Made by a program: the position numbers and the translations under genes. Below, one piece after another: positions 1-8,565 of a DNA stretch of 64,000 nucleotides. Below the pieces are notes generated by a model. The model searched no databases, was not told the origin of the DNA, and saw only the letters and a program-made list of their open reading frames with translations. Location of the stretch: contig CP145420.1 of the NCBI GenBank assembly GCA_036867785.1, positions 1 to 64,000 of the forward strand, given 5' to 3'. Source of the stretch: Plasmodiophora brassicae (Eukaryota). The number at the start of each line of letters is the position of its first letter. Within the stretch, counting starts at the first letter, position 1.

Positions 1-360
1 ACCCTAAAACCCTAAAACCCTAAAACCCTAAAACCCTAAAACCCTAAACCCTAAAACCCTAAAACCCTAAAAACCCTAAAACCCTAAAACCCTAAAACCC
101 TAAAACCCTAAAACCCTAAAACCCTAAAACCCTAAAACCCTAAAACCCTAAAACCCTAAAACCCTAAAACCCTAAAACCCTAAAACCCTAAAACCCTAAA
201 ACCCTAAAACCCTAAAACCCTAAAACCCTAAAACCCTAAAACCCTAAAACCCTAAAACCCTAAAAAACCCTAAAACCCTAAAAAACCCTAAAAAACCCTA
301 AAAAAACCCTAAAAAACCCTAAAACCCTAAAAAACCCTAAAACCCTAAAAAAACCCTAAA
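1..360 (-). repeat. Telomeric array (TTTTAGGG)n, seen as CCCTAAAA on the + strand; chromosome end
   Basis: Tandem CCCTAAAA from base 1; proximal ~100 bp (260-360) has variants with A6/A7 tracts. Confidence 0.98.
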
Positions 361-3300
361 CTGGACTCCTTCCGCCTTAAGTAACTCCTTAACCTCATCA
401 GCAAGGTGATGTTTCTCCTTCCTCATCCTGGCGGCATGTGCCTTCACCAGCTTCGGTACATCCATCGCCAACCTGCAGATTGGCTCCCATGAATCCTCCG
501 CTTCAGAGAAACCCTTCCATCCGATCAACAATTCCAATTCCCCTGTCTCCGGACTGTGCCTGCAGTCCTTGAAGACTTCAATGGCGAAACGCTCATTGTC
601 ATAATCCATCTGTCGCTTCAGTTCCTCAGTGGCATTCACTTTGCCATGTTCATAGAGGCGAACGCGGTCCCCGTGAACGGTTCGAGTGTCCGTCTCATTG
701 AACATATTCCTCACCTCGTAGGTGTAGTTCTCGTGGCTATCAGTTATTTGATATAGGCCCCGCCACTTCATAAAGAGCTTCTTGCCCGGAACCTTACCCG
801 GTTCAGGCAATCCGATGAGTACATAGTCACCGATCTGAAAGTTCGGTGCAGTTGCTCGTCGGTACGCGTCGCTCCTCTTCCTGTGTACGGCTCGGATTTT
901 CTTCGATTGCTGCACTGCTCCCTTGTGCATTTCATTCAGCGACGTCTGCAATTGCATGACTAGCTCCTGAATATGCTCCTTTGAGAGTGTAGCTTCCCCA
1001 TACTTCTCATCCCCTGGCCTCTTGAACACTTGCTTCAGCGGGTTGTCTGGTTGACGTCCCATCATCACTGTCACTGGCGCATTCCCGTTGGTACGCGCCT
1101 GCGACCTGTGATTGATCGTGTGTTCAATGTTGTGGTTCAACCATGGCCAATCGTATTTGTCCCACTGCAATTCAGACAGAAGTGCTCTGACTAGTTGCAA
1201 GTAGTTCCTGTTGATCACCTCAATTGATCCATTACTGTAATGCCCATAGGCAACAGTCGGGTGATGAGCAAATCCACATCGACGCGCCAGTTCCTTCACA
1301 ACGTTTGCCAGAAAGCAAGACGCCATGTCTGACACCATCAACTCAAACGTTCCGAAGATAGCCCTCCATTCGAGCAGTGCCTCTACAGTGGTTTCCGCAT
1401 TGGGTGTATGGTCAGGAGTAATCTTGACCATGCCAGACAGATCATCCCTGATTATCAGATTCCATTGCAGATCATGTCTTCCGCCCTTCTGAGCCGCCAT
1501 CATGTATAGCCAATCCAAGTGAATCACCTGATTCGGCCTAACACCATGAACAGCTGTTCCCAATGGCCTGGGAATCCTAACCCCGCCCCTTGTCGGTAGA
1601 CAGTTCAAACACGCGTTGCAGAACGTCCTCATGTCCTCATCGCAGTGTGCCCAATGGCAGAACTCCCCCAACTTCCTCAACGAGGCCTTCAGTCCTAGAT
1701 GCCCACTGTTTCCGCCCGCATGAGCAATAGCGCATAGCTGCAGCTTCAGCTCGTTGCATTCGTCTGGTATGATCACCTGTCCCTTCCCTGTGACGAAGAG
1801 ATCATCACCATTCTTCGGTCGTTTCGTTCCTCTGAGCCATTTCCTCTGAGCCTTACGGATTTCGTCCACGGTCGGCCATTGGAATTCCTTCCTTTGTAAC
1901 GGCCGTACCCGATATCCGTCCTCAATTTGAAGCGTTATCCTCCTGATCGTGCGTACCTCTAGGTGCTGGTCATCAGGCCCACCGTCCGGTGCACCCCACC
2001 GCGTCATAAGATCCGACCACACATTGTCCTCCCCCGCAATGTGTTCAATGACGTAGTTGACCCTCTGTATGTCCAGTGCCCATCGTTGCAGTTTCTGCGC
2101 CGTTGGCTTTGACACGTCCGTTGGTGAGAATATCCTCACGAGATTCCTATGATCGGTAAACAAACGAAACTGCTCGTTGGTTGTAACGAGATAGTCCAGT
2201 TTGTCAATCCCATCCTTGATCGCGAACCCTTCCTTCTCCACCGTGGACCAGTTCCGCTCTGGGCCCGCGAACTTGTGTCCGACGAAACCCAGCGGTTCAT
2301 GTCGCTGCCCATGCACTGGTTTACCCAAGTCCTCAGGCGGAATCTGTGTGACTACCGCCGCGCTGTTAACCTCATTTGCATCTGAGAATAGGCATTGGAT
2401 CCGGTCCTTTCGCGGGTACGCTAGTTGGACCGTGTCCGCCACTGCCATCTTCAGTTTCTCGAATGCCAGCGCATGTTCGGGTGACCATCCATATTTGCAC
2501 AATCGCACCCTCCTGGCAATGGCTTTCGTCCTGCCAGGTTGGTCCTTCATTGCATCCTCGTATATCCTCTGTAACAGGTGTACCTTCCTGTTGTACTCAG
2601 GGATGGACCTACTCATCCACTGAGTTGCCATAAGGAATTGTTGCAAGTCCCTTGCCGTCCTCGGCTGTGGTATCGCCATTAAAGCCTCAATCCTAGCAGG
2701 ATCGTGCCTTACCCCTTCTGGCGTGAATATCCTTCCACAAAACCGAACCTCTGTTGTGAAGAGCTCACACTTCTCCACGTTGAACTTGATGCTGTGCCGT
2801 TCGGCTAGCATCAGAGTCCGTTCCAACGTTCGGAACCAATCATCCTCCCTTTGGGCATGCCCCATTAGATCATCGATCCATATGATTAGTTTGTGGAACA
2901 TAAGTTCCCCGAACACCTCAAACATCCTCCCTTGATACTGAGGGGCGGAGTTCATTCCCCCCTGCATCGACCTCGTTGGCTTATACACCCCCTTATCTGT
3001 CATGAAGGAGAAGATCTCCTGACACGCTTCATCCAGCGGCATCATCCAGAAGCCTTTGAACGCGTCTAGCTTAAACCAGAACCTCGAGCCTGCCAGGTTC
3101 CTCAGTATCGCCTCCTGATGTGGCATAGGCCACGCCACGGCGACACATTTGGCATTAACAGCTCTGAGATCAACACAGAACCGCTTTCCGCCCCCTGGCT
3201 TCGTCACCACCACCACCGGTGAAGCCCACTTCGCGTTGTAGTTTTCAACGACTAGGCCATACTTCTTCAATTGGGCGACGAATTCCTCCATGAAAGCACT

Positions 3301-5025
3301 GTCCTCCATACTGTACTTTCTGGCTCGGCACCTGTAAGGTTCCGCATCCGGTTTCAGCTCCGTGACAAATGGTGTAACCCTGGCTGGACCATCAGGTCCA
3401 ATGCTCATACGCCAAACGTCCCTATATCTTCTGACGAGTTTCCGAAGCGATTTCCCCATCGCTTGCGGTAGGCCATTCCTCAATGCGCGCTCGACCATCC
3501 CGTCCATCTCCCTTTCCAGGGAGTCTGTGGAATCGGTTCCGATCCTCACATCCTCTGTTTCCTCTTCCTCCCCTTCCCAGAGAGGTGGCATCTCGTTTGC
3601 CATATTGTGCACTTCATCCATGACGTCATTCCCCTTCTTCGGCGTGCTCTTAATGAGTACGTCCAGGGCCTTCTTTGGGTGGATACCCAAGTCGTCCAAC
3701 AGCCTCTCCCCTAGGATTATTTCCTTTTCAGGAATGTCCCATACAAGGCATCGGCGCCGGCGAGTGATCAGTTCGCCTGCCGTCGTCGTCAGTCCCAGAT
3801 CCAGTATCATCACATGGTAGGCTGTGTGCTTCGTTTCTCTGTCTACCAGACAGAACGTTTCCGGCTTCTGGAGGTTCTCCATTGTTAACAATGGGTCCCG
3901 CTCCATTAGCTCGCGCGCTATGGTCAATGGCATCAGAACGTCAACCGATGTCGCTCCACTGTCCAGAACCCCAACGTAGTCTTCCTCATGTCCGTTTACA
4001 CGAACGACTACTTGGTCCCCTGTCCTCTGCGCCCCCTCCGACACTCTTCCTACCACTGGAAGCCATGGGTACTCTGACAAGTCGTCATCTTTATCAGATT
4101 TGGCCTTACGGGGTCCATCCCTTCCCGTTGGCCCCTTGCGGCGATCCTTCAGCAGGTCTGCGACCTGCTTCTTGGTAGGCTTCTTCGGGCAACGAAACGC
4201 TGGATGTCCAACCTCGTCACAGTTGAAACATCGCAGGTCCTTCCGGTGTCGTTTCGTGTCCCGGCCTCCATCGCCCCCCTCATCCGTCTGCGCCCCTCGC
4301 TTCCTCGGGGTGGGTTTGACCTTTCCCTTCCCCTTGCCATCCTCACGTCCCGGCTCCATGTACAACATCGTCTCCTCATACGATGCAGCTCGTTCCTTCA
4401 GCACCCGATAGAATTCCAAAGGGTCCTTCTGGAGATCGGTCTGGCGCTTCATGACGAGGGTCCGCATGAGCGCTTGTAAACCGGATGGGCGCACAGCACC
4501 CAGTAGGTACTTGACCAGGTTCTTCCGTCCCTCGCGGGACGTGAAGAGGTCCTGCCACCCGTTGCGCGCGACCAATTCCTCGTACTGCTGCACGAGGTTC
4601 ACGACCCTTGCAGCTGGTGTGGTGATGGTCAGCTTCATCGCCAGCTTCCGCATCTCCCGGTCGATGTTCGCGTCCGTCGAGCGATCCTGCTCCAGATGCC
4701 TCTTCATCCAGTCCATCAGGTCGCTCTCCGTCACCCCCTCGGCGTCCGTGCCGAGTTCCCACTTGCAGATCGCCCTGAGCAGACCGGGGTCGATCATACT
4801 CCTCACTGACCGTGGGATCTGGCCCTTGGCATTCGGATCGTCCCGGAAGTGATTCCGATACGTCTTCAGCTCGGCCATGAACGTCGTGACGGCCTTGCGG
4901 TCCATGCTCTTCAAGGTCGGCGCCTTGTTCATCTGCAGGACGATCGTTGAGCCTTGCACGCTCTGTCCTTGTTGTCGATCATCGACGTCATCTTCCAGCA
5001 GCATCTCCTGCGCGGTGGCCACCAT
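337..5025 (-). CDS. Gag-Pol polyprotein with chromodomain
   Basis: CCHC knuckle CFNCDEVGHPAFRC; protease LDSGA; RT motifs RFCVDLRAVN, LDAFKGFW, WIDD; RNase H FSDA...WSTVEKEG...FTDHRNL; integrase GHLG..CLNC, HLDW, VSD, NGSIE; chromodomain LIGWKGFSEAEDSWEP. Likely start is the ATG at 5025 (MVATAQ). Confidence 0.93.
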   Translation of the reverse strand: MVATAQEMLLEDDVDDRQQGQSVQGSTIVLQMNKAPTLKSMDRKAVTTFMAELKTYRNHFRDDPNAKGQIPRSVRSMIDPGLLRAICKWELGTDAEGVTESDLMDWMKRHLEQDRSTDANIDREMRKLAMKLTITTPAARVVNLVQQYEELVARNGWQDLFTSREGRKNLVKYLLGAVRPSGLQALMRTLVMKRQTDLQKDPLEFYRVLKERAASYEETMLYMEPGREDGKGKGKVKPTPRKRGAQTDEGGDGGRDTKRHRKDLRCFNCDEVGHPAFRCPKKPTKKQVADLLKDRRKGPTGRDGPRKAKSDKDDDLSEYPWLPVVGRVSEGAQRTGDQVVVRVNGHEEDYVGVLDSGATSVDVLMPLTIARELMERDPLLTMENLQKPETFCLVDRETKHTAYHVMILDLGLTTTAGELITRRRRCLVWDIPEKEIILGERLLDDLGIHPKKALDVLIKSTPKKGNDVMDEVHNMANEMPPLWEGEEEETEDVRIGTDSTDSLEREMDGMVERALRNGLPQAMGKSLRKLVRRYRDVWRMSIGPDGPARVTPFVTELKPDAEPYRCRARKYSMEDSAFMEEFVAQLKKYGLVVENYNAKWASPVVVVTKPGGGKRFCVDLRAVNAKCVAVAWPMPHQEAILRNLAGSRFWFKLDAFKGFWMMPLDEACQEIFSFMTDKGVYKPTRSMQGGMNSAPQYQGRMFEVFGELMFHKLIIWIDDLMGHAQREDDWFRTLERTLMLAERHSIKFNVEKCELFTTEVRFCGRIFTPEGVRHDPARIEALMAIPQPRTARDLQQFLMATQWMSRSIPEYNRKVHLLQRIYEDAMKDQPGRTKAIARRVRLCKYGWSPEHALAFEKLKMAVADTVQLAYPRKDRIQCLFSDANEVNSAAVVTQIPPEDLGKPVHGQRHEPLGFVGHKFAGPERNWSTVEKEGFAIKDGIDKLDYLVTTNEQFRLFTDHRNLVRIFSPTDVSKPTAQKLQRWALDIQRVNYVIEHIAGEDNVWSDLMTRWGAPDGGPDDQHLEVRTIRRITLQIEDGYRVRPLQRKEFQWPTVDEIRKAQRKWLRGTKRPKNGDDLFVTGKGQVIIPDECNELKLQLCAIAHAGGNSGHLGLKASLRKLGEFCHWAHCDEDMRTFCNACLNCLPTRGGVRIPRPLGTAVHGVRPNQVIHLDWLYMMAAQKGGRHDLQWNLIIRDDLSGMVKITPDHTPNAETTVEALLEWRAIFGTFELMVSDMASCFLANVVKELARRCGFAHHPTVAYGHYSNGSIEVINRNYLQLVRALLSELQWDKYDWPWLNHNIEHTINHRSQARTNGNAPVTVMMGRQPDNPLKQVFKRPGDEKYGEATLSKEHIQELVMQLQTSLNEMHKGAVQQSKKIRAVHRKRSDAYRRATAPNFQIGDYVLIGLPEPGKVPGKKLFMKWRGLYQITDSHENYTYEVRNMFNETDTRTVHGDRVRLYEHGKVNATEELKRQMDYDNERFAIEVFKDCRHSPETGELELLIGWKGFSEAEDSWEPICRLAMDVPKLVKAHAARMRKEKHHLADEVKELLKAEGVQFRVFLGF

Positions 5026-5072
5026 CGCGTCCTTCTTTGAAACCTTCCCCGAAAGGATGTTCAAGAGATCTC

Positions 5073-5215
5073 TGTGACGTCCCAACGGTGATGGTATATC
5101 AGCCGTGTAGTATAATCGTCTGTCTCCCCGACCTGCAGCTCCCACGGACGCCGTGCGGACTCCGTGCGCACTCCGTGCATGTCCGTCATTCTTAGGGCGG
5201 CCTAGCCGGATCACA
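5073..5215 (-). repeat. Putative 5' LTR (143 bp, TGTGA...TCACA)
   Basis: Inverted 5-bp termini bracket the segment between the gag start and LINE sequence; internal short tandem (CTCCGTGCGCA-like) at ~5149-5187; no second LTR in the window to confirm. Confidence 0.55.
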
Positions 5216-5222
5216 GCTATTC

Positions 5223-7116
5223 TTGTCTTATAGCTTGGAGCCGGCACAAGCGATTAGCATCGCTGCGTGGAATTCCGATGGTCTGGACGTCGCAAAGCTC
5301 CAGGCCACGGCCGCATTCTTCAGGGATCGTCGCCTAACGGCGGCGGTCTTTGTAGAAACTTATGTTCACTTCGAAACATCACTGACGAACGTCCTTGCAG
5401 ATTATAATGTCCGACATGTCGCCGGTGGGCGCTCCGCCGGTGAACTTCGCGGTCACGGCGGCATCAGTATCATGGTACCGTCCACTGTCGCCTTGCAAGA
5501 GGTCGCCCGCGAACGCAACCGAAGCGGCCCGAGGTGGGCAATCCGGCGCGTTGGCGAGGATCTACTCGTCGCTGGCGTCTACATTCGCCCCAGCCGGTCA
5601 CTACCCGACGTCTTCGAGTACGAGGTGACGCTTGTAGACCGGACCGCCCAATGCCCTGGCGAACGCCATCGGGGGACACTGCTCGGCCCGGGAACGTGTC
5701 GTCGTTGTCGGCGATTTCAACGCTCGACTCGGCGACATCTCGGGCGACAGCACGTCGTTCCCTAGGAAGCCCCACGTTCTGGCGCTGGCCGCACGATGCT
5801 CGCTGTCACTGCTCAACTACCCGCTGCGCGGCGATCCCAGCCGATGGACATTCGTGGTGCCCAACGGCAGCGGACGCTCCGTCGCCGATCTCGCCCTGGC
5901 TCGTGGCCTCGACGCCGCCGCCACCTTGAGTGTGGTCGGTGCGCTGGTCAGCACCGCGCATCGGATGCTGGTCATCGCGAGCGACCATGCCGTACTGGAG
6001 CGCATCGACCCGAGCCGTTATTCGTGGGCACGTCGGATGCTCGCCGATCCTGACGATCGTCCCGCCCTCACTGTCCTGCTTTCTCCGGCCTACAACTATC
6101 TTCGGGCCCTATGGATGGACGCCGCGCTGGACCTAGACGACATGCGCGACCAGCCAGTCGACAGCCTGTACCGCCATACTACTGCCGTTCTCCGTGCCGT
6201 CCTCGAGGACATCGCCTGCTGACCCAGCTCCAGATCGAAGCGGGGCCATTCGGCATCGATGCGCCCCGTCTGGAAGGCACTGCAGCGGTGCGACCTCCGC
6301 TTCTACCTGCACTCCATGCGCAGCGTCTTCTCGGCGACGTCGCAGCTCAAGCCGAGCCAACGCCCGTCCATCGAGGAGTTCACTGACCATTGGAAAGCGG
6401 TCTTCGAGAAGGCGGGCGTGGACGACGGCCCGCGCCTGCGTTCCCCACGCCTCTCCAGCGACCTGGACGACGAGGAGCGCCAGGTGTTCGACCCCGCTGT
6501 CGTCAGCGCCGTCATCCGGCGCCATGAGTGGATGAAAGGGGTCGGCCCGGACAACATACCGATGGACCTCCTGAAATGTGACCCGATTGCCGCCTGCCCC
6601 TGGATCTCCTGCATGTTCACATGCCTGTACACCGTGCAGCTCGTGCCGTCCGAGTGGCGTTCGGCGCTCGTCGTCCCCGTTCCGAAGCGCAACACCGACC
6701 CCGCTGACCCGTCCAACTGGCGAGGCATCGCGCTGAAATCCCACCCTGCGGAAGGCCTACGAGACATGCCTCGTCACGTACATGCACCTGAAAGGGTGGC
6801 TCCAGATGCACTTCCAGCTGCAGTTCGGGTTTCGGCGAGGTATCGGTGTCCCTGAAGCCGTGTAGGTGGCCGACGAGCTCACATCCCACTGGGCGTCACA
6901 ACGCAAGCCGTTTATCGAGGTCCTCCTCGACATGAGGAAGGCGTACGATAGCGCCCGCCGCATCCACGTCTACAACAAGCTACAGAGGCGCGGTGTGCCG
7001 GCCCATGTCATCGCCCTGCTGCAAGCCTTGTTCGACGGCTGCCACTTCATTATCGCCCTGGACGGGCAGCTCTCCGAGCGGATCGCCGCGCTCGTCGGCC
7101 TCTTCCAGGGCGCCAT
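5223..7116 (+). mobile_element. Degenerate LINE (non-LTR retrotransposon) ORF2: APE endonuclease plus truncated RT
   Basis: APE motifs AWNSDGL, VET, RGHGG, VAGVY, VVGDFNARLG; RT motifs GPDNIP, VPSEW..VVPVPK, NWRGIAL, QFGFR, LDMRKAYDS, GLFQG; frameshifts and stops; ends before the YxDD motif. Confidence 0.9.
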
Positions 7117-7332
7117 TGGCAGCCGTCGAACAAGGCTTGCAGCAGGGCGATGACATGGCACACCGCGCCTCTGTAGCTTGTTGTAGACGTGGATGCGGCG
7201 GGCGCTATCGTTCGCCTTCCTCATGTCGAGGAGGACCTCGATCAGCGGCTTGCGTTGTGACGCCCAGTGGGATGTGAGCTCGTCGGCCACCCACACGGCT
7301 TCAGGGACACCGATGCCTCGCCGAAACCCGAA
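6824..7332. repeat. Inverted repeat of LINE RT segment (arms 6824-7044 and 7117-7332)
   Basis: Arms are near-identical reverse complements with a ~72 bp spacer; the second arm has a 5-bp deletion. Confidence 0.95.
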
Positions 7333-7409
7333 ATGGCATGTCGTCAAACATGGGGCACTCGTCACCGAAACGCGACACGACCGGACGCTGGTACGAAGCG
7401 CCGTGTCGT

Positions 7410-8565
7410 TTAATCGCTGCATGGGCGATAATGTCGCCAGATGACGCCAGGATAATCGGCCGATTCGCCCCGGATTCGCCTGCCGATGGGATCCAGGATC
7501 CGAGCGGCGCCGTCTTCGCAGGTTAACGGCGGTCGATCGTCACGACCAGACGTTCCCAGTTGCATCGCCGATACCCATCCGGGATCGACTCCACAAACGA
7601 CGACACGAGCCCGATCCCATAGCTCCTTCGACGCCGTCTTCGTCAGCATGTCCAGCGCCGCTTTCGCCATGTTGGTGTGCGGGTGCTGACTTGTGTTCAC
7701 GCGCGATGATTGCCCTTCCTTCGACGTCACATTCACCACCGTCCCCTGGGCGCTGGACAATGCCCCGGCCAGACCGTTCAGCAAGAGGAATGGGACGAAC
7801 GCATTGACGAGGAGGACTTCGAGGCATTCGCCTGGGTCGATCCCGCCCAACAGAGTCGACGTCCACGTCGTTTGCGAACGCAGGTCGCCGATCGTATCAC
7901 CGGTTCGCGGATCGACCGCCCCGAGAACGGGGAACAGATCGTCGCCTTGCTTGACGGCCGTCGATCGCTCGGCAGGAAGCAGTGCCTGCGACATGGGAAC
8001 GACGACGACGTCGTGCACCATGGGACTTCGCAGGCGTTTCAGGCGTTCCTCCTCCTGCACCAAGGCAGCGTAGAATTCGTCCGGGCGACGAATGGTCTGC
8101 GCAGCGTTGTTGATCAGGGCAGAAACGTTCGGGTACCGCTGGGCGAAGTGCCTGACGAGCGCTCGCACCCGAGCAAGATCCCTGAAATCGCACCCGTAGA
8201 CGTGGACACGCTCGCTGCCGTACTTGGCGAGCTTGGCGGCCAGGATATGCGGGAAGCGCGTCGTCGCGACAATAAGCGGCGCGCCCGAACCCAGCAGACG
8301 CTGGACGATGGCGAAGCCGATCTTGATCCGGGCGCCGGTGACGATGACCACCCCCGGCAGGCCGGTGAAATCGGTCGATTCGGCACGTTTCGCCGCGTTC
8401 ACCTGCGAGCAGACCTGGCAGATGGCAACCTGCCAGCCGTCGTGATCGCATCGTTTCCGGCACATGTAGCAGGGCCGGCGCCGGCCAGATCCATTCCCGG
8501 CGCCCGTCTGGTGCAGGCGGTCCAAGAGCCGATCGCGCAGCCGATCGACCAGGTCCAGAGCTTCC
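7410..8565 (-). CDS. Short-chain dehydrogenase/reductase with N-terminal Cys4 zinc finger (possibly the C-terminal half of the upstream gene)
   Basis: CYMC...CQVC; VIVTGARIKIG; LINNAAQTIRRP; HTNMAKAALDMLTKT; VDPGWVS. Confidence 0.85.

What the first reader, a model, noticed from the sequence alone, without database searches (positions are those of the whole stretch)
260..5215. Intact chromovirus ORF capped by the telomere: the telomeric repeat supplies the stop codon and replaces the 3' LTR
Seen: the uninterrupted gag-pol ORF passes a complete chromodomain and reads GAA GGA GTC CAG TTT AGG GTT TTT TTA GGG TTT TAG (EGVQFRVFLGF*). Its last codons and stop are telomeric repeat; there is no PPT, 3' LTR or subtelomeric spacer. 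Known: Gypsy ORFs normally end just before a G-rich PPT and the 3' LTR. Inference, model 1: a recent break healed by telomerase at a TTTAGGG-like seed at the start of the PPT, sparing the whole ORF. Inference, model 2: a telomere-associated LTR element that recurrently caps chromosome ends. Transcription points outward, so read-through would give UUUUAGGG (TERRA-like) RNA.
Basis: partly seen in the sequence, partly recalled or inferred. Interest (0 to 1): 0.78.

Follow-up and report, generated by a model that had tools for sequence, protein, structure and literature searches.

The report
Healed chromosome break inside a retrotransposon
A chromosome of the clubroot parasite broke at the last codon of a young jumping gene and was re-capped with telomere repeats, an ordinary repair also seen at many of its other chromosome ends; the less ordinary find is that this jumping gene had landed inside a second, telomere-tailed retroelement that clusters at chromosome ends.

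Summary
Observation confirmed: the 1,562-codon gag-pol ORF runs into the telomere, which supplies seven codons and the stop. Details corrected: 24 of 28 genomic matches carry a native TAG exactly there, so the break fell one base into the stop codon, 188 nt before the PPT, on a 2-nt seed (GT). A telomere-borne stop is trivial (120 of 120 telomere-frame pairs). The family is an ordinary young two-LTR Ty3/Gypsy scattered over the genome. A second end (C13 left) is cut inside the same family at another base, but four more ends cut other Gypsy families in the opposite direction, and 20 of 40 ends are demonstrable truncations with 1-4-nt seeds. So one-off telomerase healing is supported; a capping LTR element is not. 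Reads were inconclusive. New lead: the copy sits in a relic of an APE-type LINE clade that is subtelomeric (16 of 32 loci within 20 kb; 21 of 21 within 100 kb point 5' to the telomere) and ends 3' in short telomere tracts, also in 2 of 2 distant metagenomic relatives, recalling MAGGY-in-MoTeR. The scan noted healed ends before in other genomes.

The parts
1..359 (-). Telomere array (TTTTAGGG)n of the left end of contig C11; the ~11 units next to the junction are irregular (T3-7AGGG)
337..360 (-). Telomere-derived tail of the ORF: seven codons (FRVFLGF) and TAG; base 360 is the one base shared with the native stop codon
361..5025 (-). All 1,555 native sense codons of the single gag-pol ORF; 99.2-99.9% identical in DNA to most internal copies, three private synonymous differences
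412..582 (-). Chromodomain at the integrase C-terminus
   Evidence: HP1/CBX5, E 5.5e-6; Pfam Chromo E 9.5e-4, under cut-off; relatives P0005 and P0011 pass the cut-off
1597..1752 (-). Integrase zinc-binding domain (catalytic D..D-x35-E core follows, read by eye from the translation)
2062..2487 (-). RNase H (single Ty3/Gypsy type)
2734..3204 (-). Reverse transcriptase (WIDD motif)
3955..3963 (-). Protease active-site motif DSG (by eye)
4189..4230 (-). Gag CCHC zinc knuckle
5064..5073 (.). 10-bp palindrome where the tRNA primer-binding site would be
5073..5248 (-). 5' LTR, 176 bp, TG...CA; points towards the telomere
5249..5252 (+). Remaining half of the 4-bp target-site duplication, at the start of ORF2 of the LINE
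   Evidence: uninterrupted site in the C18, C8 and C13 LINE copies
5249..7452 (+). Decayed copy of a subtelomeric APE-RT LINE (ORF2 with frameshifts and stops, then an inverted piece at about 7117-7452); its 5' part, which lay beyond the Gypsy copy, is gone

Best explanation
A copy of a young, active Ty3/Gypsy family of Plasmodiophora brassicae integrated into the start of ORF2 of a decayed LINE that already lay in the subtelomere (shown by the uninterrupted sites in sister LINE copies). Later the chromosome broke, or eroded, inside the element; the end was trimmed to the first base of the native stop codon and telomerase added repeats using two bases of homology (inferred from the junction). 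The 3' UTR, PPT, 3' LTR and the dispensable DNA beyond were lost (shown by comparison with other copies). The seven-residue tail and the new stop are by-products. The copy cannot complete reverse transcription in cis, having no PPT and no 3' R region (established LTR biology); it might still make Gag-Pol and read into the repeats from its 5' LTR (untested), but 12 of 21 loci examined carry an uninterrupted ORF with the native end, so it has no unique role. It is one of at least 19 independent healing events visible at this genome's 40 ends.
For: 24 of 28 matches continue with TAG, UTR, PPT and LTR. 11 of 13 two-LTR copies have no LTR mismatch and a matching 4-bp TSD. 20 of 40 ends have an exact copy of their terminal sequence that runs on elsewhere among the loci held; in-register seeds are 1-4 nt (7, 5, 5, 2 cases over 19 events); best-phase homology 2.16 against 1.59 nt at random positions, P 0.002. 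Six ends cut Gypsy ORFs: two of this family outward, three of a second family and one of a third inward. Only two pairs of ends share a junction. No other telomere carries more than 30 nt of the first 100 nt of this telomere. A telomerase RNA-binding domain above the Pfam cut-off is encoded on C15. The same kind of event, with a single T as seed, is reported for Magnaporthe (10.1101/845669, passages) and with short template homology for Plasmodium (PMC5550746, passages).
Against: No read or contig seen spans the junction. The break spares every sense codon: landing between the last codon and the end of the PPT has about 3.8% chance per break in the element, and landing in the stop codon itself far less; this is also the only one of the 19 events whose lost side begins AGG, completing a telomere-like TAGG (read by eye). 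Two of 40 ends in this one family has P about 0.02 under uniform breakage, and both point outward. The telomere grammar used for the seed test, including a C-containing variant, was drawn from these same telomeres.
Confidence: 0.8

Rival explanations
1. Assembly mis-join: a telomere-bearing fragment was attached through the 99.7%-identical repeat to the wrong flank, or the junction is a minority or chimeric molecule.
For: The element is a near-identical ~28-locus repeat. One published assembly of this species says telomere-bearing fragments were added to some ends and then checked by read coverage (10.1101/2024.04.03.587992, passage); I did not try to establish which assembly G000 is.
Against: The copy has three private differences spread over 3 kb; its proximal telomere pattern is unique; all 40 ends have their own telomere and the same style of junction; the element is only 4.9 kb long.
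Confidence: 0.09
2. Telomere capture: the broken element invaded an existing telomere through micro-homology (its stop codon region reads TAGG) and copied it, without telomerase.
For: The lost side of this junction is telomere-like, unlike the other 18 events; two pairs of ends do share junction and proximal repeats over 277 and 123 nt, so ends are copied between chromosomes here.
Against: No donor: the best match to this telomere's first 100 nt elsewhere is 30 nt. The retained homology is only GT, in the range of the other ends.
Confidence: 0.05
3. One reading: a telomere-associated LTR element that targets and recurrently caps chromosome ends.
For: 2 of 40 ends are capped inside this family, both outward; 4 of 28 loci lie within 20 kb of an end against 0.9 expected, P 0.011; a chromodomain could steer integration to heterochromatin (PMC5348765, passage).
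Against: 22 of 28 loci lie more than 100 kb from an end; a second Gypsy family is more enriched (8 of 32 within 20 kb) and capped inward three times; the two junctions differ; insertion sites are a LINE relic and a 144-bp satellite, not telomere repeats.
Confidence: 0.03
4. The break point was selected because the whole ORF with an outward LTR promoter is useful there (helper proteins, or TERRA-like RNA for that telomere).
For: The break lies exactly in the stop codon, and the three private differences are synonymous.
Against: The sister case at C13 left is cut inside integrase and has lost the chromodomain; 12 of 21 loci examined have an uninterrupted ORF; three synonymous changes are too few to show selection.
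Confidence: 0.03

Closest known systems
Terminal truncation with de novo telomere formation in Magnaporthe (Pyricularia) oryzae, and MAGGY insertion into MoTeR arrays (10.1101/845669; passages read)
   Same: A chromodomain-bearing Ty3/Gypsy element inserted into a telomere-associated non-LTR element whose 5' end faces the telomere; truncated ends, including rDNA, capped by new telomeres on seeds as short as one T.
   Different: MoTeRs sit inside telomere arrays and are related to restriction-like-endonuclease elements; the LINEs here have an APE endonuclease and only 8-14 nt of telomere sequence at their 3' junction. In the passages read, the cut falls in MoTeR or rDNA, not in the LTR element.
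Telomere healing in Plasmodium falciparum (PMC5550746; passages read)
   Same: Telomerase adds repeats directly to a subtelomeric break at a few bases of template homology.
   Different: There all nine events start in one register; here seeds of 1-4 nt start in several registers.
Chronos elements of oomycetes (PMC5348765; passages read)
   Same: Ty3/Gypsy with an integrase chromodomain, outside the Chromovirus clade; the element's nearest named relatives outside Plasmodiophora are Phytophthora proteins (about 40% identity).
   Different: Chronos is defined by a second, archaeal-type RNase H; only one RNase H region was found here.
Chromoviruses (Ty3/Gypsy of plants, fungi, vertebrates)
   Same: PR-RT-RH-IN order with a C-terminal chromodomain.
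   Different: RT-RH falls in a separate protist clade in a tree without named chromovirus references; 4-bp TSD and a palindrome in place of the tRNA site (the usual 5-bp TSD and tRNA-Met or self-priming site are recalled, not from a call).
Telomere-specific non-LTR elements: HeT-A/TART/TAHRE, SART/TRAS (PMC4700185; passages), FoTeR (PMC12857005; abstract and outline)
   Same: For the flanking LINE clade, not the Gypsy: concentration at ends, fixed polarity with the 5' end outward, head-to-tail stacking (C18 right, C1 left), telomere sequence at the 3' junction.
   Different: Host is a rhizarian with a telomerase gene; tracts are short and are absent from LINE-free copies of the flank, which points to addition onto broken or freshly healed ends rather than insertion into long arrays; 11 of 32 matched loci are internal.

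Membership tests
Ty3/Gypsy LTR retrotransposon | pol order PR-RT-RH-IN | tested here: met
   (protease and integrase core by motif)
Ty3/Gypsy LTR retrotransposon | two TG..CA LTRs, PPT, target-site duplication | tested here: met
   met by internal copies; the window copy keeps only the 5' LTR
Chromovirus clade | chromodomain at the integrase C-terminus | tested here: met
   weak; close relatives pass Pfam cut-off
Chromovirus clade | RT phylogeny inside the Chromovirus clade | tested here: inconclusive
   quick tree of 73 rows puts it with Plasmodiophora, oomycete and unnamed elements (support 99), apart from SH3_Tf2-bearing elements; no named chromovirus was in the tree
Chromovirus clade | 5-bp TSD and tRNA-Met (or Tf1-type) primer site (features recalled) | tested here: not met
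   4-bp TSD in 11 of 13 copies; palindrome, no TGG, after the LTR; Tf1-type self-priming not tested
Chronos (oomycete chromodomain Gypsy) | dual RNase H with an archaeal-type domain | tested here: not met
   only RT_RNaseH families hit, one region; definition from PMC5348765
De novo telomere healing | telomere joined directly to sequence that continues in other copies | tested here: met
De novo telomere healing | short homology to the repeat at the join; telomerase in the genome | tested here: met
   2-nt seed; Telomerase_RBD over cut-off
De novo telomere healing | junction present in single molecules | tested here: inconclusive
   only assembled contigs were available
Telomere-specific retroelement (claim for the Gypsy family) | confined to ends, inserted in or on telomere repeats | tested here: not met
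   22 of 28 loci more than 100 kb from an end; insertion sites are a LINE relic and a satellite
Telomere-associated non-LTR element (claim for the flanking LINE clade) | enrichment at ends with fixed polarity | tested here: met
   16 of 32 loci within 20 kb (1.0 expected); 21 of 21 within 100 kb point 5' to the telomere, 3 of 11 farther in do; some loci are duplicates of one another
Telomere-associated non-LTR element (claim for the flanking LINE clade) | telomere sequence at the 3' junction | tested here: met
   also 2 of 2 long metagenomic relatives
Telomere-associated non-LTR element (claim for the flanking LINE clade) | priming on chromosome 3' ends or endonuclease specific for telomere repeats | not testable with these tools
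   inferred from junction anatomy only

The most novel reading that the evidence does not exclude
The junction is one frame of a fast turnover cycle at the chromosome ends of a rhizarian pathogen that uses two capping routes: telomerase, which heals almost any break on 1-4 bases, and an undescribed clade of APE-type LINEs whose RNA ends in telomere C-strand repeats and is reverse-transcribed directly onto broken or barely healed ends, stacking head to tail like HeT-A/TART although telomerase is present. Chromodomain Gypsy elements then fill these arrays, and the next break cuts through them, here leaving a whole gag-pol ORF and an outward promoter against the telomere.
Probability: 0.45. Interest if true: 0.68.

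Novelty: new member of a known kind. Interest (0 to 1): 0.4.

Why it matters
The junction itself is an anecdote of a known repair. Its value is as a marker: because the element family is very young, the break is younger still, and about half of all ends in this genome show the same direct joins, so terminal DNA is being lost and re-capped often. That offers a concrete mechanism for the divergent subtelomeres reported between isolates (10.64898/2026.10.14.759018, passages), 19 natural seeds from which the telomerase template of a rhizarian could be inferred, and a lead to a telomere-tailed LINE clade that I did not find described. If those LINEs really attach to broken ends they would add a further eukaryotic supergroup to the list of retroelement-capped chromosomes.

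Tried and rejected
Reads: one search listed 24 runs, 20 holding the stretch, all as assembled contigs; no RNA holder listed on record, which is no evidence on expression. I laid 4 of the 24. All four show the native continuation beyond base 360 (loose ends in X5, X6, X15; an overhanging contig in X1). No listed piece spans the telomere junction or the LTR/LINE junction, but 592 pieces and 34 loose ends were not shown; in X1 and X15 the first-bin depth equals that of the one contig starting at 360 (my arithmetic), so nothing was laid over 337-359 there. Contigs drop one-copy variants of a 20-copy repeat and telomeric contigs may be filtered, so this is no verdict. A residual depth of 47.7 at the private site 4612 in X1 is too weak to use. 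Contigs of X1, X5 and X6 do cover the LINE relic (5260-5870 in all three, to 6209) without differences. The listing of cluster members: the exact tailed protein is not in the collection; no support either way. Irregular proximal repeats as a signature of new healing: rejected, since all 40 telomeres have them and they return at the tips; the perfect middle may be consensus smoothing. Seed at the PPT: rejected. Tree: 6 of 120 rows dropped for length (P0085-P0088, P0097, P0106), 73 of the remaining 114 used by my choice, careful search unfinished. Pfam gave nothing for the 1,264-1,344-codon subtelomeric ORF family or for LINE ORF1. A genome-wide pattern search for the short tract listed only its first 100 places and was not usable. 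For 13 of 18 LINE 3' junctions no LINE-free copy of the flank was among the held loci. The metagenome scan confirmed only 3 of 100 pattern matches, 2 long enough to show a 3' end. Literature searches returned no description of these ends in this species; supplements of the papers were not read and may bear on this, above all those of the 55-assembly pangenome preprint.

Full report
Setting. The window is the first 64 kb of contig C11 of a 25.28-Mb genome in 20 contigs. All 40 contig ends carry arrays of TTTTAGGG. The element's 90%-identity cluster holds proteins named Plasmodiophora brassicae, and T4AG3 is the published telomere of that species (PMC6823432, passages), so I take the organism to be the clubroot parasite.

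The observation. The ORF 337-5025 on the minus strand is open for 1,562 codons and ends EGVQFRVFLGF*. It has a Gag zinc knuckle, a DSG protease motif, RT, RNase H, integrase and a chromodomain. The last seven codons and the stop are telomere repeat; no PPT or 3' LTR follows. The 5' LTR is intact at 5073-5248.

What normally follows. A search with the last 546 bases gave 28 matches: 24 read CAG TAG where the window reads CAG TTT, and 3 stop earlier. After the native stop come 188 nt to the PPT and 200 nt to the 3' LTR. So the telomere begins one base into the native stop codon, far from the PPT, and the retained homology to the repeat is GT. All 1,555 sense codons survive. A stop supplied by the telomere needs no explanation: 120 of 120 telomere-frame pairs reach one within 71 nt, and the second capped copy ends ...GKVPGLGFF* in the same way.

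The family. It is young and dispersed. Of 13 two-LTR copies compared, 11 have no LTR mismatch (one of them has a 22-nt gap) and a matching 4-bp target duplication. Of 21 loci examined, 12 have an uninterrupted ORF with the native end. The window copy differs from the full-length single-block copies by 7-18 substitutions in 4,889 nt and has three private, synonymous differences. Of 28 loci, 4 lie within 20 kb of an end (0.9 expected, P 0.011) and 22 more than 100 kb away. In a quick tree of RT-RNase H (73 rows, no named chromovirus) it groups with other Plasmodiophora, oomycete and unnamed elements, apart from SH3_Tf2-bearing Gypsy elements. It lacks the second RNase H that defines Chronos (PMC5348765, passages) and has a 10-bp palindrome in place of a tRNA site. 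It is a chromodomain-bearing Gypsy; membership of the Chromovirus clade is not shown.

The other ends. I fetched 8-10 kb from all 40 ends. The left end of C13 is also capped inside this family, outward, but about 410 nt earlier, within integrase, and that copy had inserted into a 144-bp satellite that forms the ends of C6 left and C20 right. This looks at first like model 2, and 2 of 40 has P about 0.02 under uniform breakage. But a second Gypsy family (34% identical in protein) is capped at three ends and a third family at one, all four inward, and the second family is the more end-enriched (8 of 32 within 20 kb). LINE ORFs are cut by the telomere at C1 left, C9 left and C18 right, and the large-subunit rRNA gene at C5 left and C10 right. 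For 20 of 40 ends an exact copy of the terminal sequence runs on elsewhere among the loci I held; these are 19 events, each at its own base, with in-register seeds of 1-4 nt and slightly more homology than random positions (2.16 against 1.59 nt, P 0.002). For the other 20 ends no such copy was held, so they are untested, not negative. A telomerase domain is encoded on C15. Direct capping of broken repeats is therefore the rule in this genome, and the window's junction is typical in all but one respect: it fell in the stop codon, and it is the only one of the 19 whose lost side completes a telomere-like TAGG. I cannot separate coincidence from a preferred seed.

Is the junction real? Not proven. 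Only assembled contigs of public runs were on hand and they gave no verdict. In favour: private differences along the copy, a proximal telomere pattern found at no other end (best match 30 of 100 nt), and the consistency of all ends. Against complacency: the element is a near-identical repeat, and one published assembly of the species reports adding telomere-bearing fragments to ends before checking them with reads (10.1101/2024.04.03.587992, passage).

Mechanism. Shown: insertion site, lost parts, junction bases. Inferred: integration into an existing subtelomere; a later break or erosion; trimming to the stop codon; telomerase addition. Established LTR biology: without PPT and 3' R the copy is dead in cis. 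Untested: transcription from the outward LTR into the repeats, and a Gag-Pol with seven extra residues after the chromodomain.

The flank is the more interesting part. Bases 5249-7452 are a decayed LINE; sister copies on C18, C8 and C13 are uninterrupted at the insertion point, and the C8 copy has a 1,260-codon APE-RT ORF2. A protein search gave 49 matches at 32 loci: 16 within 20 kb of an end (1.0 expected) and 21 within 100 kb, all 21 with the 5' end towards the telomere, against 3 of the 11 internal loci; the query was itself subtelomeric and at least three pairs of loci are duplicates of each other, so the counts overstate independence. Of 21 hits to three 3' UTR queries, 18 align to or near the 3' end, and these are followed by telomere-like C-strand sequence: a good 8-14-nt match in 11, a degenerate one in 7 (read by eye). 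Where a LINE-free copy of the flank was held (5 of 18 junctions, 4 events plus one older relative counted among them), the tract is absent from it, so it was added at the join; at C18 right and C1 left one element is stacked on the cut end of another. Two metagenomic relatives at 40-41% identity also end in such repeats. This anatomy fits a LINE that is copied onto broken or barely healed ends using a telomere-repeat tail, or one whose endonuclease prefers telomere-like sites; the C8 and C12 junctions, with degenerate tracts behind an identical LINE end, favour the second for some copies.

Comparison with what is known. Magnaporthe offers the closest picture: the chromodomain element MAGGY inserts into telomeric MoTeR elements, and truncated ends are healed on seeds as short as one T (10.1101/845669, passages; PMC1635262 and PMC8381367, passages). 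Plasmodium healing (PMC5550746, passages), Chlamydomonas subtelomere contraction (PMC8287924, passages), SART/TRAS and HeT-A (PMC4700185, passages) and FoTeR (PMC12857005, abstract and outline) are further precedents. In the passages I saw of three papers on this species' genome none describes truncated ends or telomere-associated LINEs; the pangenome preprint notes divergent sub-telomeric regions. I read no supplements. Earlier scan notes report healed ends inside genes in other genomes and the palindromic primer site in this genome's Gypsy elements; I saw the palindrome here but did not test their claims.

Verdict. The genome-wide pattern and the telomere-tailed LINE clade lift the whole to 0.4: a new member of a known kind.

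Noticed in passing
window 5249-7452 and G000 C1L, C4L, C8L, C9L, C12, C13, C14, C15, C17L, C18R (L029, L032, L036, L037, L061, L066, L097-L104); metagenome loci L114, L115: Subtelomeric APE-RT LINE clade with fixed 5'-to-telomere polarity and short telomere C-strand tracts at the 3' junction, stacked head to tail at some ends; the tail is also in two distant metagenomic relatives.
   Followed up: partly
all 40 telomeres (L029-L068, window 1-359): About 10-14 irregular units next to the junction (T2-8AG2-5, CTTAGGG), then about 20 perfect units, then irregular again at the tip; either a truly imprecise telomerase smoothed by consensus or a start-up mode. Many seeds end in GC, GCT or GCTT, hinting at the template.
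   Followed up: partly
L037:1-216 (C9 left telomere): The distal 20 units are TTTAGGG, not TTTTAGGG, unlike all other ends; this is the host-plant type repeat (PMC6823432), so possibly host reads in the assembly.
   Followed up: no
L033 (C5 left) and L058 (C10 right): Both ends are cut at the same base of the large-subunit rRNA gene and share 277 nt of telomere; C9 right and C16 right likewise share a junction in a 169-bp satellite.
   Followed up: partly
L040 and L048 (C13:413-10259): Two copies of the same Gypsy family in tandem, both outward and both 3'-truncated; the outer one is inserted in a 144-bp satellite and capped by the telomere.
   Followed up: yes
L064:161-4192, L043:391-4182 and relatives at C1L, C5R, C7L, C9R, C15R, C17, C20R: A family of 1,100-1,350-codon ORFs shared by many subtelomeres, all reading away from the telomere, with no Pfam match in the two members scanned.
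   Followed up: no
L053, 1,174 nt inside the C5 right junction: A buried 20-nt telomere tract, as if an old healed end was later extended.
   Followed up: no
L071, L072, L004/L005 (C12:761,300-777,600): Two inverted copies of the family 400 bp apart with crossed target duplications, suggesting a rearrangement between them.
   Followed up: no
window 5064-5073: 10-bp palindrome in place of the tRNA primer-binding site, the same in the copies examined.
   Followed up: partly
window 6821-7335: Inverted repeat of 179 + 42 nt formed by an inverted piece of the LINE relic.
   Followed up: no
L038:492-6260 (C10 left): A 1,923-codon ORF ends 7 nt before the telomere junction with only the first third of a DUF3638 domain; probably a host gene cut by a healed break.
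   Followed up: no
L072, L082, L086: The second Gypsy family has inserted into copies of the first at least three times, once into the 3' LTR 13 kb from the right end of C2.
   Followed up: no
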